Source of the DNA: a virus
Taxonomy: Duplodnaviria > Heunggongvirae > Uroviricota > Caudoviricetes
DNA: 10,998 bases
Strand: one strand, 5' to 3'
IMG/VR virus record: IMGVR_UViG_3300019867_000001
Coordinates: 93,244 to 104,241 of that record
Shown one piece after another: positions 1-10,998 of this stretch. How positions within the stretch are numbered: position 1 is the stretch's first letter; each line of letters begins with the position of its first letter. The notes under the pieces are model-generated. The model did no database searches, was not told the origin of the DNA, and saw nothing but the letters and a program-made list of their open reading frames with translations. The position numbers and the translations under genes are program-made.

Positions 1-194
1 GAGTAACCATCATGATTATAATATTGTTTATTTTCAAATTTTACACACCAATATCCTTCAATATTTGGCGAACCTACTATTTGCCCAATCTGTATCCAAT
101 TTCCTGGACTAACTTTCCAATATATTGAACCATTTTTATATTCAATCAATTTAATGAGTTTCAAACCAATTGTTTCCAATCTTACTCTCTCCAT
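1..194 (-). CDS. N-terminal part of a free-standing HNH endonuclease-like ORF overlapping the DNA polymerase 3' end (runs off the window; start 194 or 164)
   Basis: LIEYKNGSIYWKVSPGNWIQIGQIVGSPNIEGYWCVKFENKQYYNH resembles the N-terminal leader of HNH-AP2 endonucleases, including the intron 3 and 4 ORFs. The HNH core is not in the window. Confidence 0.55.
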   Translation of the reverse strand, partial: MERVRLETIGLKLIKLIEYKNGSIYWKVSPGNWIQIGQIVGSPNIEGYWCVKFENKQYYNHDGY

Positions 195-2022
195 TCATGA
201 TACTAATCTTTAAAAGTAAAGGACCATCTTTAAAAGCTTTTTTTGCAATATTTGCTGTTATTTCTGAATATTCTTCAGGAACACCTATTTGTATTTCATC
301 ATGATAAAAGATATATGGTTTATAGGGTATATTTTGTTTTTCTAATTCCTCGACAGTAAGCATTAATGCTATAGCACATGTTGCTTTTTCACAAGCTTGA
401 AGCAAATATACAAGTAATTTATGGAAGCCATCACAATAAATCTTATTACCAGCAATTCCGTAAATATACCCAGGACCAAACTGAGAAGTTTTTGCAAATA
501 CTGCTTCAAGTTTTTCAAGTAAGTCTCTAAATCCTGGTATTGCTTTTAAGAATTCTTTTTTAAATTTCTTTCCAAGTTCATCATCAATTACACTAAATAA
601 GTATGACCAAAGCTTAGGTCCAGACGCACCAAAAAGTGTAGCATATAATATTCTTTTAGATCTGCCTCTAAGATTATCTGGTATTTCGGAAACTTCTAAT
701 TTTTTAAGAATTTTTAAGATTATATCAGCATTACGTTGATGGATATCACCACTAAGTAATTCATTAGTAAATTCTTCTTTATTTAAGTAGTATGCTAGCC
801 CTCGTGCTTGATTTCCTGATGAATCGGCACCTACTATTTTCCATCCAATTTCAGTAATAAATAATTTTCGCATTTCAGAGCCATAAATACTATCTGGTGT
901 AGGTACATTAACTATAACGTTATGTCTTGCGCGCATTGAAGGAGTACCAATAGTGAAACAATCACCATGTAATTTACCATTAGTATCACAATTTTCAATC
1001 CAAGTTTTTAATATTGAAAATCTAGATCTTACAGTTAAAAAATCACAATATAATTTACCATTACCACTTAGCATACCTTCAAGGCTATCTTCTGTAATTT
1101 TTGGTGAGCTTCTTATTTTTTTACCTGTTTCTGGATCAACCTTAAAATTCCATTCAGTTGGTTGCCAACCGTTACGTTCAAGAAAAATCTTAACATCTGT
1201 AACACTATCTATATCTAAATGCTTAAATTCAACTCTACAATATTCACCTTCAATAAGTTGATTTTTATATCCGCCAGTATCTGGATCAATACCAAACCAA
1301 TTGGCGGTATGTATATTATAAGCACCATTTTTATTCCATTTAGGCCATTTAGGTTCTACAACTCCAAGTTTTTTATCTATAGCAACGCATTTGCTTCCAA
1401 GTAATGGAAGTACTTTACTTCTTGTTTCATTCATAATTATTTCTAATTTACTAAATAATTCTTTAGCTTTATTTAGATTAAATGGCCATCCTTCTAATTC
1501 AGCTTGTGCGCAAAATTGTGCTACTGCATGTTCTGCTTTTAAGTAGATTCTTATATTTTCTGTTTTAGCTACTATTGTTTTAAACTCTCTGAGTAAGTAG
1601 TTATAAACTTTTTCTGTTAGAAATAAATCATTCTTGCAATACTCAAGCATTTCTGGGCTATACTGAGTGAAGTCTATAAAGCTACCCTTCGGGAAATCTA
1701 AGAATTCTCCCCAAGAAGCTAAATTATGTGAGTTATCAGAAAAACGCTTGTAGTTTAGTATCTGTGAAAATAACATAGTATCATGTACAGTTACACCTAC
1801 TGGTAACTTATAATTAAAAAGTTTTTTAAGCATGATTAAGTCAAACTGGATTACTCGATGACCAATCACAATTGTAGCTTTATTTAACATATCTTGCCAA
1901 CTTAAATCTCCTTCAAGAAACATATATGTTTGATGTGTCTCTAGATTTAATAAACCTACAATCCAGCAATGAGTTCCTCCTTTTAATAAATCATTAGTTT
2001 CTATATCAAGAATGTATCGCAT
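151..2022 (-). CDS. Family A DNA polymerase with 3'-5' exonuclease, T7 gp5-like, 623 aa
   Basis: Exonuclease motifs DIET, FDL and Y..ND; motif A GADSSG..AR; motif B R-x3-K-x3-Y-x3-FG; motif C YHDEIQ; C-terminal NWFETH; thumb insertion where T7 binds thioredoxin. Confidence 0.95.
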   Translation of the reverse strand: MRYILDIETNDLLKGGTHCWIVGLLNLETHQTYMFLEGDLSWQDMLNKATIVIGHRVIQFDLIMLKKLFNYKLPVGVTVHDTMLFSQILNYKRFSDNSHNLASWGEFLDFPKGSFIDFTQYSPEMLEYCKNDLFLTEKVYNYLLREFKTIVAKTENIRIYLKAEHAVAQFCAQAELEGWPFNLNKAKELFSKLEIIMNETRSKVLPLLGSKCVAIDKKLGVVEPKWPKWNKNGAYNIHTANWFGIDPDTGGYKNQLIEGEYCRVEFKHLDIDSVTDVKIFLERNGWQPTEWNFKVDPETGKKIRSSPKITEDSLEGMLSGNGKLYCDFLTVRSRFSILKTWIENCDTNGKLHGDCFTIGTPSMRARHNVIVNVPTPDSIYGSEMRKLFITEIGWKIVGADSSGNQARGLAYYLNKEEFTNELLSGDIHQRNADIILKILKKLEVSEIPDNLRGRSKRILYATLFGASGPKLWSYLFSVIDDELGKKFKKEFLKAIPGFRDLLEKLEAVFAKTSQFGPGYIYGIAGNKIYCDGFHKLLVYLLQACEKATCAIALMLTVEELEKQNIPYKPYIFYHDEIQIGVPEEYSEITANIAKKAFKDGPLLLKISIMNGESKIGNNWFETH

Positions 2023-2062
2023 AATTAAACTTTCGTTTTAATATATAAGAGCATAACTTTGT

Positions 2063-2479
2063 TCATAATGATCTGAATGCCGCATCTAATGTATTAAATC
2101 TAATAACTCTTTTATCAAGAATCCATGATCCTATAGGGCGCATAGTACGCCCTATTGTTGTAATATCTTCTAATACAGCAAATACTGGCTTATTCATTGC
2201 AAGTGCCATTCCAACTTCAACTAAAGCACCTTTAAGTGGAAGGTCTTCTTCACCATGAACATAAAATACTAATACTGTAGATTTTCGTATCTCTGTTTCA
2301 ATTCGTGCCCATAATTCACCAAAATCTTCAATATCTCCATCACCTGGTTCATTAATCCATGTTGAATTAATTAATATACCGTTTGCTTTATAATGTTGCC
2401 ATAAAGCATAATGTTTAACACGAGAAGCAACATAAATACCACTTGATGCTACTTTAAAGTTTTCTAGGTGGATCCCCAT
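2063..2479 (-). CDS. Nucleoside 2-deoxyribosyltransferase-like / nucleotide N-glycosidase fold protein (likely start ATG 2479)
   Basis: IYVAS first strand, W..I..EI..STVLVFY, and the GALVEVGMALAMNKPV signature with the catalytic-type Glu. RBS GAGGA precedes 2479. Confidence 0.7.
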   Translation of the reverse strand: MGIHLENFKVASSGIYVASRVKHYALWQHYKANGILINSTWINEPGDGDIEDFGELWARIETEIRKSTVLVFYVHGEEDLPLKGALVEVGMALAMNKPVFAVLEDITTIGRTMRPIGSWILDKRVIRFNTLDAAFRSL

Positions 2480-2549
2480 TACTATTTGTCCTCTTTTTAG
2501 CATTTTTCCATATTGCTATCATAATTGGATAACCAATTAAAATACCAAA

Positions 2550-2780
2550 TCATGGTTGTTTATCTCCTTTTCTTTTAAGTAATGCAGGCTTTTCTTCTAT
2601 ACGTGCAATATGTTTAAGTTGTTCTTCAGCAAATTGCACATATTCGAGATCTGCTATTACTTGCTTAGCTTGTTTAATAGTTAAACTTCCCAGTGATAGC
2701 CATTTATTAGCTATAGCTCGATTTAAATCATCTTTTAATTTATTAATTATACTATCACGAAATATTGTCATGATATGCAT
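2550..2780 (-). CDS. Hypothetical protein, about 73-76 aa
   Basis: ORF track; overlaps the upstream gene end in a packed operon. Confidence 0.5.
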   Translation of the reverse strand: MHIMTIFRDSIINKLKDDLNRAIANKWLSLGSLTIKQAKQVIADLEYVQFAEEQLKHIARIEEKPALLKRKGDKQP

Positions 2781-2958
2781 TAGTCATAGTTATATAAACT
2801 TCGCGATATACTGCTCTTGGAGATTCACCTTTAATTGCACAAATAGCATCTAGCATTTCCTCAGTAGGTTCTTTAGGAATTGTAATATAATTATCTTCTT
2901 TTTGTTTTAAATTTTGCATTGCTTTCTTTACATAAATTATTGCAGTATTGACAGGCAT
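2755..2958 (-). CDS. Hypothetical protein (67 aa; IPKEPTEEM motif seen in small phage proteins)
   Basis: ORF track; the frame stays open upstream to about 3066. Confidence 0.55.
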   Translation of the reverse strand: MPVNTAIIYVKKAMQNLKQKEDNYITIPKEPTEEMLDAICAIKGESPRAVYREVYITMTNAYHDNIS

Positions 2959-3049
2959 TTCACCTACTATGTACTGTTCACATAATTTCTCACATTGCTC
3001 AATTGTTTTAATTTTTATATTTTCACAATAAGTTAATTCTTGTTTGGTT

Positions 3050-3190
3050 TTATTTAATTTTTTCTTTTAATTCATTTATATGATTAGCTTGTAATTCAAT
3101 AAGTTTATTTAAATCACCAAAATTAAGAGAATGATATTTTTCACCATTCCACTGTTCTCTATGCTTTTGTAATAACTCAGCTAATTCCAT
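3050..3190 (-). CDS. Small hypothetical ORF (46 aa), possibly the 5' half of a frameshifted gene continuing to 2755
   Basis: RBS AAGGAATAAA-ATG; MELAELLQKHREQWNG... The +1 frame opens at an A6 run and reads into ORF 2755..2958. Confidence 0.6.
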   Translation of the reverse strand: MELAELLQKHREQWNGEKYHSLNFGDLNKLIELQANHINELKEKIK

Positions 3191-3206
3191 TTTATTCCTT
3201 TTATAT

Positions 3207-3236
3207 AATGAGAGTAGATTTTAACCTACTCTCATT
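3207..3236. other. Intergenic 11-bp perfect inverted repeat (AATGAGAGTAG / CTACTCTCATT, 8-nt loop)
   Basis: Lies between the DUF3310 stop and the next RBS. There is no U-tract on the sense (minus) strand. Confidence 0.7.
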
Positions 3237-3238
3237 TC

Positions 3239-3745
3239 TTAATCTTTTATCCGTATTGGTTTACAGTTATTTTTAATGTATTTTATAAGGAAATTTAAAT
3301 ACCACTGAGCTTTCTCGAGCTGCTCAAGCTCTATTCCTTTCTTATTAGCACGATCCAAATATTTCCGTATTTGTAATTCTAATGCTGCAATAAAATTTTC
3401 AGGATTTTGGTATCTTGGAAGATATTGCATCGTTTCTAACCATTCTAAGCCTTGGCAATAATCTTTATAATGTTTAGGATTTATTGGATCATCTTTCATT
3501 ATTATACCTGCTTCTTCAAATGGTTTCCAAGTATTAGCTCGTTCTACTCCTTCAAACCAACCATCAACCTCATTATGATTTCTAAGAGTTTTTATAAATA
3601 TTTTATCAATAAGATCAATTACATTTATATAGTAACCTTCTATAAGTTTTCCGTTTTCATGGGAATCTTTTATAGCTTCATTAAAACTAACAGCTGTTGA
3701 TACAATTTTTGAGTTTTCATCATATACATCATAGGTATACCTCAC
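3239..3745 (-). CDS. DUF3310-domain protein (T7 gp1.7-like nucleotide kinase family) with N-terminal extension
   Basis: DPINPKHY..KYLDR..K..EQLEKAQWYL signature; GTG start with RBS GGAGG. Confidence 0.8.
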   Translation of the reverse strand: MRYTYDVYDENSKIVSTAVSFNEAIKDSHENGKLIEGYYINVIDLIDKIFIKTLRNHNEVDGWFEGVERANTWKPFEEAGIIMKDDPINPKHYKDYCQGLEWLETMQYLPRYQNPENFIAALELQIRKYLDRANKKGIELEQLEKAQWYLNFLIKYIKNNCKPIRIKD

Positions 3746-3754
3746 GTATCCTCC

Positions 3755-4258
3755 TTAGAACACCTTATCGCCATCTCCTTCTAATTCAGGTTCAGGCTCA
3801 ATCCTTTCATATTCAGCGTCATCAAAGTCTTCTCTTCCTTTAGGAGTAAATACTTTATGTCTTATAACTTGTACACCCATCAGCATAGAAGCAATACCTT
3901 TTTTACCCTCATAAACATAATCATACTGAAATACTCTTATATTAGCAATAGATTCATTACCAATGCTATTTGGGTCTAAATCTCCACCTTTACCATCAAT
4001 TACTTGTACTGGAGCTGTAGCTGTTCCATCATCTTTTACTGATTTCTTTTTTAAATTTACACGCCAGTATAATACAGATGTTTCATCTGGAGACATTACT
4101 GGCTTTACATTTAATTTCATTTCATCCCATGCTTTTTTAATTGCTTTATCCTTTGTACGAATTTGCACCTCCCACGTAGGTGCCTTTGGATTAAACTTTT
4201 TAGCAGGCCTTTTGGGATCCAGCTTAGCATACCAAATCTCACAGTTCTTTATGATCAT
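3755..4258 (-). CDS. ssb: Single-stranded DNA-binding protein, T7 gp2.5-like
   Basis: OB-fold-type pattern (YAKL..P; IGNESIANI; GVQVI), acidic C-terminal tail ending in Phe, and location in a replication module. Confidence 0.8.
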   Translation of the reverse strand: MIIKNCEIWYAKLDPKRPAKKFNPKAPTWEVQIRTKDKAIKKAWDEMKLNVKPVMSPDETSVLYWRVNLKKKSVKDDGTATAPVQVIDGKGGDLDPNSIGNESIANIRVFQYDYVYEGKKGIASMLMGVQVIRHKVFTPKGREDFDDAEYERIEPEPELEGDGDKVF

Positions 4259-4296
4259 TATATTACCTTTTAAGAAATTTTAATTTACAATTACAG

Positions 4297-4313
4297 TCCC
4301 AGTAGGGTAAATT
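4297..4313 (-). promoter_or_regulatory. Candidate phage-RNAP promoter AATTTACCCTACTGGGA upstream of ssb
   Basis: Sits in one of the few true intergenic gaps and loosely resembles the T3 promoter AATTAACCCTCACTAAAGGGA. Only one copy is present, so no consensus can be derived. Confidence 0.25.
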
Positions 4314-4332
4314 TACAGGGTTTTTTAAGAAA

Positions 4333-4734
4333 CTATTGAAGCCCCAGACGTTCATTAATATTCTTATAATATGTAATTTCATTGCTATCGTTTTTATTCA
4401 TTTTAAATTTAAATTGAGTACCAACATTTTCTTTTGGAATAAAATATGTTATTCCGAATTCATTATTATACAGTATAATTGCCTCAAATATAGCTTCTAG
4501 TTTTAAATAGCTTATAGCTTCCCATAGACATAAATCTTTATAATTTAAATCTTCAAATTTATCACATTCTTCTTTGTTTTCAACATAAATAAAATAGCCA
4601 TCCCTTTCAGGATTATATGGATCTTCACCAAATGAATAATTAGTTGTAAACATCATAAATATTTTTATTATTAAATTTCTATGTGATAGATTTTTTATTT
4701 TTTCTATATCATTTATAGTTTTAATTTCAATCAT
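4333..4734 (-). CDS. Hypothetical protein (likely start ATG 4734, 133 aa)
   Basis: An ATGA overlap with the upstream stop favours 4734 over the track start 4749. Confidence 0.6.
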   Translation of the reverse strand: MIEIKTINDIEKIKNLSHRNLIIKIFMMFTTNYSFGEDPYNPERDGYFIYVENKEECDKFEDLNYKDLCLWEAISYLKLEAIFEAIILYNNEFGITYFIPKENVGTQFKFKMNKNDSNEITYYKNINERLGLQ

Positions 4735-5051
4735 TTTATATTTCCCCAAAAAGAATATGGGTTATTATCTATTTGTTCCGCAATTACTTTTCTTCCAAAT
4801 ACTTCACCAAGTATAATATGATTAATTAATAGATTATTGGTACTTACTTCATGCATTTGCGAATCATACTCAAAGAAATCTGGAATTGTATAAATTTTAA
4901 GATATACTTCTTTATACATAAAATCTTGGATATCTATGATATCATTTAGATTTTCAGTATTCAAATAATACATATAAATTTTACCAATAAATTTATAATC
5001 ATTAAAAAATTCAACTAAATCTCCATTATACTGTTCAAGTATTGAATACAT
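4731..5051 (-). CDS. Hypothetical protein, 106 aa
   Basis: TAATG overlap with the upstream gene; RBS AAGGA. Confidence 0.65.
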   Translation of the reverse strand: MYSILEQYNGDLVEFFNDYKFIGKIYMYYLNTENLNDIIDIQDFMYKEVYLKIYTIPDFFEYDSQMHEVSTNNLLINHIILGEVFGRKVIAEQIDNNPYSFWGNIK

Positions 5052-5491
5052 TATGGCCTATCCTTATATTCAATTTTTGGCATATAAGGAAATACTATTG
5101 GTACACAACTATCTGAATTTTGAAAGCATGCACCATCTGGATTTCTGAATATAATACCACGGCTATCATAGGCCTGTCCATCAAACCTATCAACTTGTTT
5201 AAATACATGCGAACATCTGATATTTTGATATATAGCAGGATCTATAGTATTATTCCATTCAGAATCTCCACCTGTTAATGGAGTTAATATTTCCCAAGAT
5301 GCTAGTTCCCTAAATAGCTCTATTGCATATGGAGCACTGGAACCTGAATGCCCATGCGTACTAAATATCTTAAGTAATTCAATTATTTGTTTACATAGTA
5401 ACTCTTGCATTTCATCTTCAAATTCATGCTTATCATTCATCCATCCAGCTATTCTAAACTCTCGCCAGGCATGTTCTTCGTATTTACTCAA
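5051..5491 (-). CDS. Conserved phage hypothetical protein (GHSGxSA / LTPLTG / YQN motifs), 146 aa
   Basis: TTG start with RBS GAGGAG. I recognise the motif pattern as a recurring phage family of unknown function (from recall, not searched). Confidence 0.75.
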   Translation of the reverse strand: MSKYEEHAWREFRIAGWMNDKHEFEDEMQELLCKQIIELLKIFSTHGHSGSSAPYAIELFRELASWEILTPLTGGDSEWNNTIDPAIYQNIRCSHVFKQVDRFDGQAYDSRGIIFRNPDGACFQNSDSCVPIVFPYMPKIEYKDRP

Positions 5492-5672
5492 AATTTTAAC
5501 TCCTCTAAATAGATCCCTTGTTTACTCCTACAAATACGTAATATGCATATACCATTTACATATACATGTACATGTAATACATTCCTATTCTGATCATGTA
5601 CTATTTGTGGTTCTGTAATATCAGTAAAAGCATTTATAATTTTTCAGGTGTTAGTCTAAGTAGCCTTATCAT
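5488..5672 (-). pseudogene. Unannotated about 61-aa gene broken by a one-base deficit in an A5 run (5640-5644)
   Basis: RBS AAGGATAATAA-ATG with an ATGA overlap upstream and a TTGA overlap downstream. Adding one A gives MIRLLRLTPEK-IINAFTDITEPQIVHDQNRNVLHVHVYVNGICILRICRSKQGIYLEELKF. Confidence 0.6.
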
Positions 5673-5881
5673 TTATTATCCTTTAAGCTCATACAAATTC
5701 TTTCTGCTTCTTCTAATGTAGTTTTATTTTTAAGCATTTCTATAACACAATTACTATATTCATGGCGTTTATTTGAAACTGAAGTTGCAGCCCAAAATAA
5801 CAATAACATAAAAAATAGTAATACAATCGATAAAACAACACCAGTACCATTATCTTCAAGCCACTGTAAGAAATATCTCAT
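5669..5881 (-). CDS. Hypothetical protein with N-terminal transmembrane helix, 70 aa
   Basis: RBS TAAGGATAATAA-ATG directly after the RNAP stop; hydrophobic GVVLSIVLLFFMLLLFWAA. Confidence 0.75.
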   Translation of the reverse strand: MRYFLQWLEDNGTGVVLSIVLLFFMLLLFWAATSVSNKRHEYSNCVIEMLKNKTTLEEAERICMSLKDNK

Positions 5882-5890
5882 TTATTATCC

Positions 5891-6570
5891 TTATGCAAAA
5901 GCATATTCGCTATCTAATATAAGTGAAATATCTAAATTTCCTATATCTACTTTTTTAATATCGCTATTTATATCTTTCATTAATGTATAAAGTGGTTCTG
6001 CTTTATATAAATCTACAAATGTTTCTCGTACAATAACATATAACTCAGACATATCTCCAAGTAAGCATCCAAATGAATCATGAACTGTTGTTACATGAAA
6101 ATTAGCTTTATTTACAATTAGCATCATGTGCGCTGCATCTAAGCTATGTATTGCATTCGGACTTGCACCTTGTGATTGTTTACGTTTTGAAGGTCGTATA
6201 TTTTCTATATAGCAAATATTCATTTGTAATGTATTATTAAGATAACCAGACATACTCCTCTCACCATCTGGTGGACCATATCGAACATATGTTTTCTTAG
6301 TTATGCCCTCTACATAATGCTGAACTACAGGGAATCTAGTAATAGACACAGTCCATGAAAGAAAGGTTCCAATCGATTCCGCTACTTTACCTGCTTCTTC
6401 AAATACTGATAGTAATAACATAGGTCTTTTGAGTGAAACTTTGCAATTGTTGAATACGGTATGTCCAAGATATGAAGCCCATTTATGTTCTAGATTATAA
6501 AGTAGCTCTATGCTATGTTTACGTGCGTCATCAATTATTTGCTGCGTCAAGCCGTAGGCTGTACCTCCAT
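5891..6570 (-). CDS. RNAP exon 5 (GGTAYG through specificity loop, motif C HDSF and C-terminal YAFA)
   Basis: Track ORF 5891..6550 extended 20 nt upstream to the omega-G of intron 4. Confidence 0.93.
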
Positions 6571-9500
6571 CGTTTTGTTGTACTATGCGTTAAATAGTAC
6601 CTGTAATACTTTAAATTAAGAATCTGCAAATTCGCCATACAGTTTCTTACGGTTAATAATAACACATTCATTTGCTTCTTTCGCGGTATCAAATAATCCT
6701 AAATATAACTGTATTCCATTATGACCTAAACGTGCTTGGTATTTACCATTTGGTGTTATAAATACACCTTTAAAACCTGTTGTATTAGTTTTAGGTAATT
6801 TTTTATTTATCTGATTTTGACTTTTTGTTGCTAATCTTAAATTTTCTATTTTATTATTTAATGGATTTCTATCTTTATGATCCACTAAATAACCTTCAGG
6901 TATTGGCCCATTAAACATTTCCCAAATAGTACATGCTAACATATAATTTTTACCTAAATATTCAAATTGAATATAACCACAGCTATTTATCCAGCCTACA
7001 TGTTTATGCTGATTATTTGAGTCTAATCTAATTAATTTACCATTTTCATACTTAAAAATTTCATTCCAATCCATTAATTTATCCTTAATTCTTTAAAGTA
7101 CTACAGCTGCATATTACTATGCAGACCAGACTATATCATAGCTAATTTAATTAGCTGAGGGCGTTTCCAATCTACTTAGATTGTACTTCCTTTCGGAATA
7201 GTCGTTACACCTTCAAATTATAAATCAAGTATACTTTGTATACTAAATTCAAAATAAGCTTGGCTCGGTATTGTCCATGGCGAATGGATGTTCACCGAAT
7301 TAACCCTCTTTTACTTCCGCCTAAAGTGTTAACGGAAGAACCATAACATTCAAAATATTAATAACTATTCGTTAGATAGTTACCAACTTATAATCTTACA
7401 AACTCACCATATCTTTCAATAGCTACTTCACAATATTTTTTATAAGCTTCTTCTGGAGTATCAAAAAAGCCTAAAAATTTATTTTTGCCATCTATTTTAA
7501 TTTGGGAAACCCATTTCTTTTTATGCCAACAGACACCTTTAAACCCACTTTTATTATTAGATTGTTTTGTTCTATTAAAATGATTTTCTTGGAAAGTGCC
7601 TATCCTAAGATTATCAATTCTATTATTATTTCTTATCCTATCTATATGGTCAATAAATAGACCTTCAGGTATTGGTCCGTTAAACATTTCCCAAATTACA
7701 CGGTGAGCGAATAAATATTTTCCATTTAGATAAATACCGACATAACCATCTTTTCTTAATGTTCCTGCTAAACTACCAGCAAGCATTCGGCCAGTATTAT
7801 TGGCCCAAAGTAAGTTACCAGTATAGTTATCATAAATGAAAAGATTATTATAATCTATTAAATTATCCTTAAGATTAAGTTGCTGCATATTACTATGCAG
7901 TTTAGACTATATCATAACTAGTTAAACTAGTTGAGAGCGCTTCGAACAGACTTCTGTTCTACTCCCCGAAGGGATAGTCGTTGCACCTTAAAACAAACTA
8001 AAATAAGGATAATTTTTCCTTATTATAGTAAGTAGTCTTGGCTCAGGATTGACCTATAAGGTTGTTCCCTGAATTCACTCTCTTTTATAAGCGCCATATT
8101 TAACGCTTAATTATCTTACGTCTTTGTACTTTCTCTGTAATACGCATCCAAAATACACTTGAAGCCTTTGCAATCAATTCTTTATTATCTTGTTTAAATT
8201 TTATAATTTCAGCAATTAATATTTTTCTTTTATCAGATTTTAATGGACATTCATTTATTTGATTTTTATAATAAATTAAGTTATCAATTAAATTATCGCA
8301 ATCTATTATTTCTTGCTTGGTAAGTAAATTATAATCTTTTTCTATTACTGCCCATACATTATCAGCGACATATGAATATAAATCACCAGGTAAATCTTGC
8401 GGAACTAAATTAACTAATGGCGCTGTTATTTCATCTCTTGATAATGCGGCTAAATGCTGTGACATTAATGTTAAATGGAATCGTTAGTTCCATTTTGCTA
8501 TGATACATTCTTTCCAAATTTCTTTCATTTTATTCCTTAAAATAACGCCAATTATTTAAGGTATCATAGCAACTATATATTACTATATAGATCAGACTAT
8601 CTCTTCAAGTAATAAGTATTTATTACTTGCTGTGCGCTTCCCAAGGACTTCCTTGGTACTTCCTTTCGGAATAGTCGTTACACCCGATTAAACTTGGCTC
8701 GGTATTGTCCTTAGCTTTACCTATTAGGAGTTTCACCGAATTCACACAGTTTTAAAATGGCAACTTTACCATTTGTGCTGCCGTCAATAGATACTTCAAT
8801 ATGAGACACATACTCATATAAATCATTACCTTGTGCTTCCCATTCTCGTGCTTTTTTTAATTCAAAACAAGCAGCTAAAAATTGCCAAGGTTTCGCTGCT
8901 TGCATCCAGCCTTGATTTACTTTTGGATTCTCAGCATAACTTAGAAGTATCTCCTCATTGTCAAGTGACCAATAAACTCTATCATTTAATGGTATTTTAT
9001 CTGTACTGAATCCATTTGAATCACCAGCCCAATTATTAGCAATACTAATCATAAGCCAGAAAAATCCTTGTTGTTCTATTATTTTACTATCTGCTCTTAA
9101 TAAGAGACCTCTTGCAAGATCTGGTCCCATCTCGCTTAAGAAAGCAGTAGCGGGGTATCTACGGCCTCTGAAATCGAGATAATAAAGCATTATGTTCAAT
9201 ACTATTCGTTAAATAGTATTCTGTTAAAGTTTAATATGAGACCAATTACGACCAGTACGAATACAATTAATAGTACCAGGATGAACATTAAAAATTTTAG
9301 CTATTTCCCTATTAGAACATCCAAGTTGAATAAGCTTTTTAATTTCAATAACACTAATATCATTCAATTTACTATTTATTGCAGTTTCGCCTCTAGTCAT
9401 AAGCCCATGCTCTTTAGCATGTTGTACATTTTCAAGTTGTGTACACCATTCCAAATTAATAACATTATTATTTCTTTTATTTAAATCCTTATGGTTTACT

Positions 9501-10749
9501 TTTGGTAATTTATTAGGATTTTCTATAAAAGCTAATGCTACTAATCTATGGACTCTTTCGGATTTGTTTATACCATTATGGCAGAGTGAAACTTGAAGAT
9601 AGCCATGCCCATTATCAAACTGCTTCAAGATACGGCCTTCTTTAATATAAACTCCACCATATGTACTATAGACCTCTTTCGTCTTACTTTTAACATTTCC
9701 GAAAGTTGATACTTCATATTGTTCATTTATATCTTTCCAGATTTCCATTATATTCTCCGAATATAAACAGCTATACGTTACCGTATAGATCAGACTATAT
9801 TATAATTAATTCCATAATTCCCTGCGCTTCCACCGGACTTCCGATGTACTCTACTAAGTTCTTAATCGCATCCGCGATAGCTTTTCGATAGTCGTTGCAC
9901 TTTACTTTACAAATTTTGTAAAGTCTAGCTCAGAATTGACCTTGTAAGGTTATTTTCTGAATTCACAGGGTTTACTACCACCTAAAATTAATGGTAGAAT
10001 ACTTGTCCTAAATATCTTCCAGCTATATCTCCTACAGCCGTAGTTTCTCTAAGCTTACTAGTTCTAGATTCTAAGTTTCTGATATCCCAAATATCTTTAA
10101 AAGCATCTGTTTTATTTCTAAGTGCCCATAAGTATATTTCATATATTGGTTCATTAATCATCCACCCAACATGTTGTGCTTTATTAACACAATTAAAAAT
10201 TAAAGGATGAGTTTGCGGCGTTATTTTATTTAGGACATCGCGATTTGAAGTTTTTACAAGTAATAAACCTGTTTCATGTTTTGTAGATATCCAATCTGCA
10301 TAAGGGGCAATAACAGGTAATTTTTCAGTTGAGCCAATTTTTAAAGTTTCCCATAATCTGCACAGTTTATTATCATCTAGTATATTAATTAGATATGCAG
10401 CATGACCATTTGTTGAACGTCCAAGTTCTACTTTTAAAATTCCAAATAATTCAAAAGTATAAAGTATAAAAGCACCTGCTTTTGCTGCAATTGCAGAGTC
10501 ACGTTTTAATTTATATTTTTTACGGATTAAATGCCCAATAGCACAAATTACTTCGCTCATTAATACTATTTGCTTATTATTACCTTTTCCTCTACGAGTA
10601 TACAGGTATAGTATTTGTATTGAAAGATTAATTATATCTTCATAATTAATCTCTGGTATTAACAGAAATTTAACGGGATTTTGTGGTACAATTTCTGTTT
10701 CACAACGATAGATCAGAGAAGCGATTAATTTTTGTTTCATCGTCTCCAT
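5891..10749 (-). CDS. T7-type single-subunit DNA-dependent RNA polymerase, spliced; join(complement 9991..10749, 8768..9187, 8103..8462, 7332..7350, 5891..6570), 745 aa
   Basis: Exons total 2238 nt = 746 codons with no internal stop. The joins rebuild FYH|LYYLDFRGRRYP (DxxGR), IDGSTNG|SQHLAAL (motif A), RRKIIKR|NVMVLPY|GGTAYG (motif B: R-x3-K-x7-YG), then PNAIHSLDAAH, VHDSF (motif C) and a C-terminal YAFA like T7 FAFA. RBS AAGGA precedes ATG 10749. Confidence 0.95.
6571..7331 (-). mobile_element. Group I intron 4 (761 nt) with HNH-AP2 ORF
   Basis: P1: CUUCCGU/GCGGAAG. P3: GAGGGU/GCCCUC. P7: GACUAU/AUAGUC. P9: CUGCAU-AGUAAU-AUGCAG. A 15-bp P9.1 stem CUGUAGUACUUUAAA/UUUAAAGUAUUACAG encloses the ORF. 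P9.2 has a UAACG loop. Omega-G at 6571 splits the Tyr codon T|AT. Confidence 0.92.
6616..7074 (-). CDS. Intron-encoded HNH-AP2 homing endonuclease, 152 aa
   Basis: WEMFNGPIPEGYLVDHKDRNPLNNKIENLRLAT (HNH) and TGFKGV..KYQARL..YLGLFDTAKEA..YGEF (AP2). RBS TAAGGA precedes the ATG. A 36-nt stretch matches the intron 3 ORF with 2 mismatches. Confidence 0.9.
   Translation of the reverse strand: MDWNEIFKYENGKLIRLDSNNQHKHVGWINSCGYIQFEYLGKNYMLACTIWEMFNGPIPEGYLVDHKDRNPLNNKIENLRLATKSQNQINKKLPKTNTTGFKGVFITPNGKYQARLGHNGIQLYLGLFDTAKEANECVIINRKKLYGEFADS
7332..7350 (-). CDS. RNAP exon 4, 19-nt micro-exon (NVMVLP plus first base of the catalytic Tyr codon)
   Basis: AATGTTATGGTTCTTCCGT is the only segment that restores frame and motif B between introns 3 and 4. 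It is not in the ORF track. Confidence 0.88.
7351..8102 (-). mobile_element. Group I intron 3 (752 nt) with HNH-AP2 ORF
   Basis: P1: UAAGCGU/GCGCUUA. P3: GAGAGUG/CGCUCUC. P7: GACUAU/AUAGUC. P9: CUGCAU-AGUAAU-AUGCAG. P9.2 has a UAACG loop. About 5 bp of P10 form between the guide and exon AUGUU. Omega-G at 7351. Confidence 0.9.
7388..7858 (-). CDS. Intron-encoded HNH-AP2 homing endonuclease; the SD-aligned start codon is ATA (7858)
   Basis: AHRVIWEMFNGPIPEG..IDHIDRIRNNNRIDNLR (HNH) and SGFKGV..WVSQI..LGFFDTPEEA..YGEF (AP2). The track start at 7888 lies inside the P9 stem with no RBS. Confidence 0.85.
   Translation of the reverse strand: MDYNNLFIYDNYTGNLLWANNTGRMLAGSLAGTLRKDGYVGIYLNGKYLFAHRVIWEMFNGPIPEGLFIDHIDRIRNNNRIDNLRIGTFQENHFNRTKQSNNKSGFKGVCWHKKKWVSQIKIDGKNKFLGFFDTPEEAYKKYCEVAIERYGEFVRL
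8103..8462 (-). CDS. RNAP exon 3 (120 codons; SQHLAAL through motif B R-x3-K)
   Basis: Track ORF 8100..8465, whose ATG is really the intron 2 terminal AUG and whose TAA is the start of intron 3. Confidence 0.92.
8463..8767 (-). mobile_element. Group I intron 2 (305 nt), ORF-less apart from an endonuclease remnant
   Basis: P1: AAAUGGU/GCCAUUU. P3: CUGUGUG/CGCACAG. P7: GACUAU/AUAGUC. P9: CUAUAU-AGUAAU-AUAUAG. 12-bp P9.1 stem. P9.2: AAAUGGAA-CUAACGA-UUCCAUUU. Ends AACAUUAAUG. Splicing gives DGSTNG-S-QH, the spacing expected for motif A. Confidence 0.92.
8484..8528 (-). pseudogene. Remnant of a NUMOD4-type homing endonuclease gene (minigene MKEIWKECIIAKWN)
   Basis: TAAGGAATAAA-ATG AAA GAA ATT TGG AAA GAA TGT lies in the same intron position as the other endonuclease ORFs. 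MKEIWKE matches the MEIWKD start of the intron 1 enzyme. Confidence 0.75.
8768..9187 (-). CDS. RNAP exon 2 (140 codons; DFRGR through motif A DGSTNG)
   Basis: Central part of track ORF 8717..9199, bounded by omega-G 9188 and the P1 U.G at 8768. Confidence 0.92.
9188..9990 (-). mobile_element. Group I intron 1 (803 nt, IA2/td-like) with NUMOD4-HNH ORF downstream of P9
   Basis: P1: exon CUACCAU / intron GUGGUAG with U.G at the splice site. P3: CCCUGUG/CGCAGGG. P7: GACUAU/AUAGUC. P9: CUAUAC-GGUAAC-GUAUAG. P9.2: AAUACUAUU-UAACG-AAUAGUAUU. Ends GAACAUAAUG (omega-G at 9188). Splicing restores the frame. Confidence 0.93.
9224..9748 (-). CDS. Intron-encoded homing endonuclease, NUMOD4-HNH with C-terminal HTH (I-HmuI-like), 174 aa
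   Basis: MEIWKDI..YEVSTFGNVKS (NUMOD4), VHRLVALAF..VNHKDLNKRNNNVINLEWCTQLENVQH (HNH), SNREIAKIFNVHPGTINCI (HTH). RBS GGAG precedes the ATG. Confidence 0.92.
   Translation of the reverse strand: MEIWKDINEQYEVSTFGNVKSKTKEVYSTYGGVYIKEGRILKQFDNGHGYLQVSLCHNGINKSERVHRLVALAFIENPNKLPKVNHKDLNKRNNNVINLEWCTQLENVQHAKEHGLMTRGETAINSKLNDISVIEIKKLIQLGCSNREIAKIFNVHPGTINCIRTGRNWSHIKL
9991..10749 (-). CDS. RNAP exon 1 (253 codons; short N-terminal domain and start of polymerase domain)
   Basis: ORF 9988..10749 ends ...GQVFYH-TAA. The TAA is the first three intron bases after the P1 U.G pair. VNKAQHVGWMIN resembles T7 INIAQNTAWKIN. Confidence 0.92.
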
Positions 10750-10758
10750 TACTGTTCC

Positions 10759-10914
10759 TTAAATTAAATAAAGAATAATTGCAATAAGAATTATAGCATC
10801 TATTGAAAATTTAGTAAATAAAAGTAATATAGTTACAATTATAATAAGATGGAAAATTTTAACATCAATGATAGTATTAGTATAACCATTAATGCTTGTA
10901 TTATTGTCTTCCAT
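10759..10914 (-). CDS. Small hydrophobic, probably membrane, protein (about 51 aa from ATG 10914)
   Basis: MEDNNT..IFHLIIIVTILLLF..AIILIAIILYLI. The track extension to 10992 runs through the A22 tract and is not trusted. Confidence 0.5.
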   Translation of the reverse strand: MEDNNTSINGYTNTIIDVKIFHLIIIVTILLLFTKFSIDAIILIAIILYLI

Positions 10915-10962
10915 AACTAGACCTATATTAAAAAGTTCTGCCAAACTATATGTTTGGATAGT

Positions 10963-10984
10963 AAAAAAAAAAAAAAAAAAAAAA
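10963..10984 (+). repeat. A22 homopolymer near the window end, probably a sequencing or assembly artefact
   Basis: 22 consecutive A followed by low-complexity CAAAACAACCCACC; nothing similar occurs elsewhere in the window. Confidence 0.7.
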
Positions 10985-10998
10985 CAAAACAACCCACC

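What the first reader, a model, noticed from the sequence alone, without database searches (positions are those of the whole stretch)
7332..7350. 19-nt micro-exon carrying the core of motif B between two introns
The exon encodes NVMVLP and one base of the catalytic Tyr codon, so the O-helix R-K-Y is spread over three exons. Nucleotides 2-6 serve as P10 of intron 3 and nucleotides 13-19 as P1 of intron 4, so both ribozymes dock on 19 nt. Skipping it would frameshift the gene. Typical homing sites are longer than 19 bp, so each intron probably alters the other's target, forcing co-inheritance or ordered invasion.
Basis: partly seen in the sequence, partly recalled or inferred. Interest (0 to 1): 0.8.

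Follow-up and report, generated by a model that had tools for sequence, protein, structure and literature searches.

The report
19-nt exon between two phage introns
A phage RNA polymerase gene really does contain a 19-base exon, coding for the heart of the enzyme's active-site helix, between two self-splicing introns; this is a rare but recurring double occupancy of an intron hot spot, not a new kind of element.

Summary
Confirmed. On the minus strand, window 7350-7332 (AATGTTATGGTTCTTCCGT) is exon 4 of a T7-type single-subunit RNA polymerase gene (10749-5891) split by four group I introns. Joining E3 (ends 8103, ..KR), E4 (NVMVLP+T) and E5 (starts 6570, AT GGA..) gives RRKIIKRNVMVLPYGGTAYG. 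This aligns without gaps to intron-less relatives (KRNVMTLPYGGTAYG), to DSS3_VP1 and to T7 (R627/K631/Y639 = R508/K512/Y520).

Both flanking introns pass Rfam's Intron_gpI cut-off when scanned in short pieces. They also show compensatory changes in P1, P3, P4, P5, P7.2, P8 and P9 across 13 orthologues.

E4 nt 13-19 form P1 of intron 4. E4 nt 2-6 plausibly form P10 of intron 3.

The claim of forced co-inheritance is not supported. In relatives each intron, with its own site-specific HNH endonuclease lineage, occurs alone. The double allele with the same 19-nt exon recurs in two other divergent phages. A third intron site lies 45 nt downstream of the first.

No RNA data exist, so splicing is inferred. 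Precedents exist (Twort orf142, phiNIT1 reductase, organelle mini-exons). The same genome holds an 18-nt micro-exon in motif B of its second polymerase gene. An earlier scan note on this window already listed the four-intron gene.

The parts
9991..10749 (-). Exon 1 of the single-subunit RNA polymerase gene (codons 1-253, ends ..FYH)
   Evidence: tblastn of an intron-less relative (L012, 765 aa), 62% identity; boundary read
9188..9990 (-). Intron 1 (803 nt), group I, with an HNH/NUMOD4 endonuclease ORF at 9748-9224
   Evidence: P1 CUACCAU/GGUGGUAG and a terminal G; nhmmer core hit; Pfam
8768..9187 (-). Exon 2 (codons 254-393, LYYLDFRGR .. IDGSTNG)
8463..8767 (-). Intron 2 (305 nt), group I, no ORF, inserted in motif A (DGSTNG|SQH)
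   Evidence: P1 AAAUGGU/GCCAUUU and a terminal G; nhmmer core hit
8103..8462 (-). Exon 3 (codons 394-513), ends AAG CGT = K512 R513; contains R508 and K512 of motif B
7351..8102 (-). Intron 3 (752 nt, 'site A'), group I; starts with an in-frame TAA and ends in G
   Evidence: Rfam RF00028 78.4 bits against a cut-off of 50 on 7883-8112; covariation; orthologous introns at the same site in L025, L026, L034, L058, L061, L122 and L278
7388..7888 (-). HNH_3 + AP2 homing-endonuclease ORF (166 aa) in the P9.1 loop of intron 3; its ATG lies inside the P9 stem
   Evidence: Pfam HNH_3 9.5e-21, AP2 7e-7; 62-69% identical to endonucleases of other site-A introns, 38% to that of intron 4
7332..7350 (-). Exon 4, the 19-nt micro-exon AATGTTATGGTTCTTCCGT: N514 V M V L P519 plus the first base of Y520. 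Nt 2-6 = proposed P10 partner of intron 3; nt 13-19 = 5' strand of P1 of intron 4
6571..7331 (-). Intron 4 (761 nt, 'site B'), group I; ends ..AACAAAACG
   Evidence: Rfam RF00028 63.9 bits against a cut-off of 50 on 7107-7354; 36-nt 97% match to the T4-type nrdB intron; covariation; orthologues in L031, L040, L046, L047, L063, L072, L083, L089, L122 and L278
6616..7074 (-). HNH_3 homing-endonuclease ORF (152 aa) in the P9.1 loop of intron 4
   Evidence: Pfam HNH_3 2.1e-19; 62-66% identical to endonucleases of other site-B introns
5891..6570 (-). Exon 5 (starts AT GGA GGT = rest of Y520, G, G ..; ends ..EYAFA, stop)
   Evidence: the acceptor after G6571 is fixed by homology to YGGTAYG and by alignment with the 3' ends of site-B orthologues

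Best explanation
Window 7350-7332 (minus strand) is a genuine 19-nt internal exon of a T7-type single-subunit RNA polymerase gene. It lies between two independent mobile group I introns. Their architecture looks like the IA2 introns of T4 (for example nrdB). Each carries its own HNH homing-endonuclease gene in the P9.1 loop. The two introns have settled in two neighbouring sites of an intron hot spot in motif B: site A, KR|NVM, and site B, inside the Tyr codon.

In the pre-mRNA, intron 3 selects its 5' splice site by pairing GGCGCUU with the end of exon 3 (AAGCGU). It aligns its 3' splice site by pairing AAUAU with micro-exon nt 2-6. Intron 4 selects its 5' splice site by pairing GCGGAAG with micro-exon nt 13-19 (CUUCCGU). 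The two docking segments do not overlap, so each ribozyme can act on its own and in either order.

Correct removal of both introns restores KRNVMVLPYGG, the O-helix carrying K512 and Y520. At the DNA level the two elements are separate homing units that occur alone in relatives. The double allele arises from time to time and is stable.

Shown here: exon boundaries by homology, group I membership, covariation, and the distribution of alleles. Inferred: actual self-splicing, its order, P10, and endonuclease activity.
For: Gapless alignment of the E3+E4+E5 product to DSS3_VP1 RNAP (36% identity), T7 RNAP and intron-less relatives. The five-exon splice gives a 745-aa open frame. Both intron cores exceed Rfam's Intron_gpI gathering score (63.9 and 78.4 bits against 50). 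RNAalifold on 13 site-A and site-B introns gives 48 pairs, 28 of them with compensatory changes. These include P1 with an invariant U.G at the splice site, P3, P4, P5, P7.2, P8 and P9. Every intron follows a U and ends in G. The endonucleases are site-specific: 59-76% identity within a site, 34-49% between sites. Single-intron alleles exist for both sites, and double alleles with the same 19-nt exon exist in L122 and L278. Exon codons next to the introns go with intron presence: AAGCGT in all A-carriers found without requiring it (7 of 7) against 6 of 52 empty alleles; (C/A)UUCC(G/A)U in all 11 B-carriers against 6 of 52 empty alleles. A contig from a second sample carries the same arrangement.
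Against: There is no RNA evidence of any kind, because no RNA run holding this sequence could be listed. Whole-window Rfam scans found nothing; the hits appear only when 270-300-nt pieces are scanned. P10 of intron 3 is only 5 bp with one G.U, and its covariation rests on two sequences. The P10 of intron 4 with exon 5 is weak (3-5 bp, with G.U pairs). Two ~250-nt ribozyme cores docked 6 nt apart might hinder each other, which is untested.
Confidence: 0.88

Rival explanations
1. The polymerase gene is physically split by free-standing endonuclease genes. The pieces are translated separately and assemble without splicing, and the 19 nt are untranslated spacer that merely looks like motif B.
For: Split phage genes with inserted HNH genes are known from established literature. 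The exon-3 and exon-5 frames each have possible start codons nearby (ATG at 8465, TTG at 6550).
Against: The enzyme would lack NVMVLPY, including the conserved Tyr, which is present in every intron-less relative. The insertions are bona fide group I ribozymes with guides complementary to the exon ends. The 19 nt sit exactly between a terminal G and a U.G splice-site pair, in the frame needed to restore the protein.
Confidence: 0.03
2. The two introns and the micro-exon mostly behave as one unit. Exon 3 is often joined directly to exon 5 (exon skipping), so that much of the transcript yields a truncated protein and the micro-exon acts as a leaky or regulatory step.
For: Exon skipping by phage group I introns has been seen experimentally: in Twort orf142, and in over 47% of transcripts of one SIOphi gene (PMC11878797). 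Exon 5 begins AUGGA and the micro-exon begins AAUGU, so intron 3's proposed P10 guide could pair with 3 nt of exon 5 (my reading).
Against: Skipping gives ..KIIKRMEVQPTA-stop, which lacks motifs B-C and so cannot be the functional product. The same 19-nt arrangement persists in three divergent lineages, which argues that enough correct product is made. There is no RNA evidence for skipping here.
Confidence: 0.07
3. The gene is a decaying pseudogene overrun by mobile elements, and the micro-exon is a relic with no expressed function.
For: 54% of the locus is intron. The genome carries a second RNA polymerase-like gene.
Against: All five exons are open and in register, and the conserved residues are intact. 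All four ribozyme cores keep their paired elements. Synonymous exon positions remain matched to the intron guides.
Confidence: 0.02

Closest known systems
Phage T4 nrdB / nrdD (sunY) / td group I introns (IA2 type) with homing endonucleases
   Same: Core architecture with P7.1/P7.2. A 36-nt stretch of the intron 4 core (window 7138-7103) is 97% identical to the nrdB intron of T4-like phages. The endonuclease ORF sits in a 3' peripheral loop as in sunY. A stop codon lies just inside the intron. The insertions are in highly conserved codons of an essential enzyme.
   Different: T4 has one intron per gene. Here there are four in one gene, two of them 19 nt apart. The host gene is a T7-type RNA polymerase. 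The endonucleases are of HNH_3/AP2 type.
Staphylococcus phage Twort orf142 (three group I introns, exon skipping; Landthaler and Shub 1999) and Bastillevirinae introns (Weglewska et al. 2025, PMC11878797)
   Same: Several group I introns in one phage gene. [quoted passage not shown]
   Different: Different genes and hosts. The size of the phiNIT1 small exon is not given in the text I could read, and the Twort paper was not held. Here the exon is 19 nt, carries both docking sites, and was found in three lineages.
Mini-exons between self-splicing introns in organelle genes and clustered rDNA group I introns
   Same: Very short exons flanked by autocatalytic introns are tolerated. An example is a 1-nt 'mini-exon' between two group II introns in Ophiostoma rnl (PMC12308204). 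From my own knowledge, myxomycete rDNA has group I introns 13-14 nt apart.
   Different: Those are eukaryotic organelle or nuclear rRNA genes, often needing protein cofactors. This is a protein-coding phage gene where the frame must be kept.
I-HmuI / I-BasI / I-PfoP3I-type HNH endonucleases of phage polymerase introns
   Same: An HNH endonuclease encoded in a group I intron of a phage polymerase gene (PMC3428280 for I-PfoP3I, listed).
   Different: No cleavage data here. The DNA-binding module is AP2-like. The target is an RNA polymerase gene, not a DNA polymerase gene.

Membership tests
Group I intron (Rfam RF00028) | Match to the covariance model at or above the curated gathering score | tested here: met
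   Intron 4 core 7107-7354: 63.9 bits. Intron 3 core 7883-8112: 78.4 bits. Cut-off 50. Missed in whole-window scans, probably through the speed filters.
Group I intron (Rfam RF00028) | 5' exon ends in U paired with G in P1; intron ends in G | tested here: met
   U.G invariant in 13 of 13 aligned introns (columns 10/22). All four window introns and all orthologues end in G.
Group I intron (Rfam RF00028) | Conserved paired core (P3-P9) supported by compensatory changes | tested here: met
   28 of 48 predicted pairs show double changes. P7 (GACUAU/AUAGUC) is invariant and was read by eye; RNAalifold cannot draw it because it forms a pseudoknot with P3.
Group I intron (Rfam RF00028) | Self-splicing with guanosine cofactor | not testable with these tools
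   No RNA run was listed; an in vitro assay is needed.
Subgroup IA2 (T4-like) | P7.1/P7.2 hairpins between P7 and P3'; similarity to T4 introns | tested here: inconclusive
   Two hairpins with covariation sit between P7 5' and P3 3', and there is a 36-nt match to the nrdB intron. No formal subgroup classifier was run.
HNH homing endonuclease | HNH nuclease domain | tested here: met
   PF13392 HNH_3 at 9.5e-21 and 2.1e-19, both above the cut-off.
HNH homing endonuclease | Site-specific cleavage of the intron-less allele and homing | not testable with these tools
   Indirect only: orthologous endonucleases travel with the same insertion site, and nearby synonymous exon codons go with intron presence.
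T7-type single-subunit RNA polymerase (PF00940) | Pfam RNA_pol domain and motif A/B/C residues in register with T7 | tested here: met
   PF00940 is precomputed on exon 5 and on all relatives. The alignment to T7 covers R627/K631/Y639 and HDSFG..FAFA.

The most novel reading that the evidence does not exclude
Motif B (the O-helix) of phage single-subunit RNA polymerases is a multi-site landing pad for competing intron-endonuclease elements. There are three sites within 45 nt: A, B at +19 and C at +45. Neighbours constrain each other through the few shared exon bases, which must at once encode the helix, pair with one ribozyme's P10 guide and pair with the next ribozyme's P1 guide. The 19-nt exon would then be a natural minimal substrate. 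It would show how close two group I ribozymes can sit and still splice accurately, and whether the endonuclease of one element can mobilise both by co-conversion. The loss of the endonuclease ORF from intron B in L122 hints at such piggy-backing. The same phage repeating the trick with an 18-nt exon in motif B of its second, very distant polymerase would make this a general property of that helix.
Probability: 0.3. Interest if true: 0.65.

Novelty: new member of a known kind. Interest (0 to 1): 0.45.

Why it matters
The case shows that annotation of uncultured phage genomes can miss essential residues hidden in exons far below gene-caller limits. Here the gene is called as separate fragments, and the catalytic-helix core lies in none of them.

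It also offers a compact natural system with three alleles and both single-intron controls. This could be used to test how tightly two group I ribozymes can be packed, whether exon skipping is avoided, and how overlapping homing sites interact.

I found no paper describing group I introns in a T7-type RNA polymerase gene, but my search was limited. The underlying biology (group I introns with HNH endonucleases in conserved phage genes, small exons between them) is established, so this is an extension and not a new principle.

Tried and rejected
- Whole-window Rfam scans at the gathering and E-value thresholds gave no group I hit. This was a false negative, resolved by scanning short pieces.
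- No RNA holder was listed in either search of public runs, so there is no expression or junction evidence.
- Laying DNA contigs of four runs showed no intron-less joint. The two 'joints' listed are cross-matches between paralogous introns.
- A single-protein search of IMG/VR found nothing. An alignment query was needed.
- The double-intron pattern in metagenome contigs gave 28 hits, all false. In IMG/VR it gave one true hit (L122) and one false (L123), and it missed L278.
- I first considered acceptors for intron 4 at ..CAG|CC and ..GCCT|AC (giving LPSYG or a non-G intron end). I rejected them in favour of ..AACAAAACG|ATGGAGG, which keeps K-to-Y spacing, matches YGGTAYG and aligns with the orthologues' 3' ends.
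- I considered the alternative register KRFMVLPSYG (donor CGTT, acceptor AATG) and rejected it, because the relatives read KRNVM.
- The Twort 1999 paper was not held.
- Ribozyme core identity does not separate sites A and B cleanly; only the endonucleases do.

Full report
**What is there**

All long frames in the window lie on the minus strand. Five of them are pieces of a T7-type single-subunit RNA polymerase ending ..SEYAFA. The window is the last 11 kb of a 104-kb IMG/VR phage record with 33% G+C. Reading 8200-6480 on the minus strand shows three things in order:
- exon 3 ending AAG CGT;
- the 19 bases AATGTTATGGTTCTTCCGT at 7350-7332;
- a frame that resumes at 6570 with AT GGA GGT ACA GCC TAC GGC.

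**Check of the observation**

I spliced 8465-8103, 7350-7332 and 6570-5891 in silico. The product reads ..VQRRKIIKRNVMVLPYGGTAYGLTQQIIDD... Across both junctions it aligns without a gap to two intron-less polymerases:
- roseophage DSS3_VP1 (36% identity, RRKTVKRNTMTLGYGGTEYGMGQQVIED);
- T7 RNA polymerase (TRSVTKRSVMTLAYGSKEFGFRQQVLED).

A search of 5.8 billion proteins found a large family at 57-69% identity. Its uninterrupted members read KRNVMTLPYGGTAYGLGQQ.

With an intron-less 765-aa relative as guide I fixed all boundaries:

| Part | Window coordinates (minus strand) |
|---|---|
| E1 | 10749-9991 |
| I1 | 9990-9188 |
| E2 | 9187-8768 |
| I2 | 8767-8463 |
| E3 | 8462-8103 |
| I3 | 8102-7351 |
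| E4 | 7350-7332 |
| I4 | 7331-6571 |
| E5 | 6570-5891 |

The spliced gene encodes 745 aa with no internal stop. R508, K512 and Y520 correspond to T7 R627, K631 and Y639. R and K are both in exon 3, and the Tyr codon is split T|AT between E4 and E5. A contig from a different sample and study covers 6828-8465 identically.

**The acceptor of intron 4**

Several G residues near 6560-6571 are candidates. Only the one after G6571 meets three conditions. It keeps the K-to-Y spacing of eight residues. It reproduces YGGTAYG. It also aligns with the ..GAACAAAACG ends of the orthologous introns.

**The flanking insertions are group I introns**

Whole-window Rfam scans were blank. Scanned as 270-300-nt pieces, the intron 4 core (7107-7354) scores 63.9 bits and the intron 3 core (7883-8112) scores 78.4 bits against Intron_gpI, whose cut-off is 50. 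An ORF-less orthologue (L072) scores 80.5 bits.

A 36-nt stretch of intron 4 (7138-7103) is 97% identical to the nrdB intron of T4-like phages.

I aligned 13 introns from the two sites. RNAalifold predicts 48 pairs, 28 of them with compensatory double changes:
- P1, with an invariant U.G at the splice site;
- a 7-bp P3 with four covarying positions;
- P4, P5, P7.2, P8 and P9.

P7 (GACUAU/AUAGUC) is invariant. By eye, the endonuclease ORFs sit in the loop of a long P9.1 stem. In intron 4 this stem is CUGUAGUACUUUAAA paired with UUUAAAGUAUUACAG. It is followed by a P9.2 hairpin with a UAACG-type loop. Intron 3 begins with an in-frame stop, and the frame entering intron 4 stops after three codons.

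**Docking on the 19 nt**

Nt 13-19 (CUUCCGU) pair with GCGGAAG of intron 4. In relatives the exon and the guide change together: CUUCCAU with GUGGAAG, and AUUCCGU with GCGGAAU.

Nt 2-6 (AUGUU) can pair with AAUAU, which lies just 5' of intron 3's P1 guide. Across seven site-A introns, exon position 3 (T or C, synonymous for Asn) goes with A or G in the guide. The C/G form is in L026 and L122. This P10 is plausible but thinly supported.

The two segments do not overlap, so nothing in the sequence forces an order of splicing.

**Survey of relatives**

Of 452 IMG/VR relatives, the best 80 loci were fetched. Their state at the two sites was as follows:

| State | Loci |
|---|---|
| Uninterrupted at both sites | most |
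| Site-A intron, no site-B intron | 6 (5 distinct sequences; one of them, L061, also has a site-C intron) |
| Site-B intron only | 8 |
| A and B together | none |

A third site, C (YGLG|QQ, 45 nt after A), is occupied alone in L154. It is occupied together with A in L061, leaving a 45-nt exon.

Targeted pattern scans found the A+B allele, with a 19-nt exon at the same boundaries, in two more phages:
- L122: AACGTAATGACTATTCCGT. Only 47% protein identity in exon 5. Its intron B has no ORF.
- L278: AATGTTATGACACTTCCGT.

The endonucleases fall cleanly by site: 59-76% identity within a site and 34-49% between sites.

Three of 12 distinct A-carriers also carry B, against 8 of 73 non-A loci (Fisher p=0.18). 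So there is neither exclusion nor obligatory linkage.

Synonymous exon bases next to the introns go with intron presence:
- KR is AAGCGT in all 7 A-carriers found without requiring that sequence, against 6 of 52 empty alleles.
- The last 7 nt of the would-be micro-exon are (C/A)TTCC(G/A)T in all 11 B-carriers. Only 6 of 52 empty alleles have that form: 5 CTTCCGT and 1 CTTCCAT.

This is what co-conversion, or selection for P1 pairing, would produce.

**Mechanism**

I conclude that two separate homing units occupy adjacent sites. The micro-exon is kept in the mRNA by two independent splicing reactions.

Skipping it gives ..KIIKRMEVQPTA-stop. Using the AAUG acceptor 4 nt downstream gives ..KRLWFFRMEVQPTA-stop.

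That each intron changes one flank of the other's DNA target follows from geometry. Whether this matters depends on where the HNH enzymes bind, which is unknown.

**Comparison with what is known**

- Multiple group I introns in one phage gene, and exon skipping, are documented for Twort orf142.
- Mini-exons between self-splicing introns occur in fungal mitochondria (PMC12308204).
- I found no paper on group I introns in a T7-type polymerase gene, but the search was limited.

Earlier notes of this scan already listed the four-intron gene on this window and the five-intron second polymerase elsewhere in the genome.

**Verdict**

The 'forced co-inheritance' inference is contradicted by the single-intron alleles. 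This is an extreme but recurrent case of a known kind of element, still lacking RNA proof.

Noticed in passing
own genome G000:C1:40190-40173 (minus strand; L152 3691-3674), outside the window: A second micro-exon, 18 nt (GCAAAATATGGTCACCTT), in motif B of the phage's other, very distant RNA polymerase-like gene (the MuF-fused one of earlier notes). Splicing gives ..DLRKASK MQNMVTL YGAGKRTG.., which matches EBPR siphovirus 1 gp47/gp49 (..DLRKAAKAQNMVTFYGAGERTG..). Both flanking introns pass Rfam (97.8 and 83.9 bits). The sites are 1-2 nt off from sites A and B of the window's gene.
   Followed up: partly
whole genome G000 (nhmmer): Ten related group I intron cores in one 104-kb phage genome: four in the window's polymerase gene, five at 37.8-42.9 kb and one at 54.1-54.4 kb.
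   Followed up: partly
L061 3589-4630; L154 1855-2280: A third intron site (C) in motif B, after YGLG and 45 nt downstream of site A. It occurs alone (L154), or with a site-A intron, leaving a 45-nt exon (L061).
   Followed up: partly
L278 (reverse strand) around 13302-14070: In this double allele the first ~60 nt after the P1 guide are nearly identical in introns A and B (TAAAAGAGAGTGAATTCAGGGGACACCTATTTA..). This suggests sequence exchange between the neighbouring introns.
   Followed up: no
L122 4000-4276: In this double allele intron B is ORF-less (277 nt) while intron A keeps its endonuclease. This would be expected if one endonuclease can carry both introns by co-conversion.
   Followed up: no
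window 7888-7883 and 7900-7880: The start codon of the intron 3 endonuclease lies inside the P9 stem (CUGCAUAGUAAUAUGCAG), so ribozyme folding may mask it. The intron 4 ORF instead has a free AAGGA 8 nt upstream of its ATG.
   Followed up: no
window 1-10998, Rfam scans: Rfam's default and 'evalue' filters missed four true group I introns in an 11-kb or 5-kb scan of this AT-rich DNA, but found them in 300-nt pieces. Blank whole-window Rfam results on such DNA should not be trusted.
   Followed up: yes
window 151-2022 (minus strand): A family A DNA polymerase gene (623 aa) with no intron, downstream of the polymerase gene and a set of small ORFs. The closest named relatives of the RNA polymerase are Naomviridae roseophages (DSS3_VP1/PM1).
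   Followed up: no
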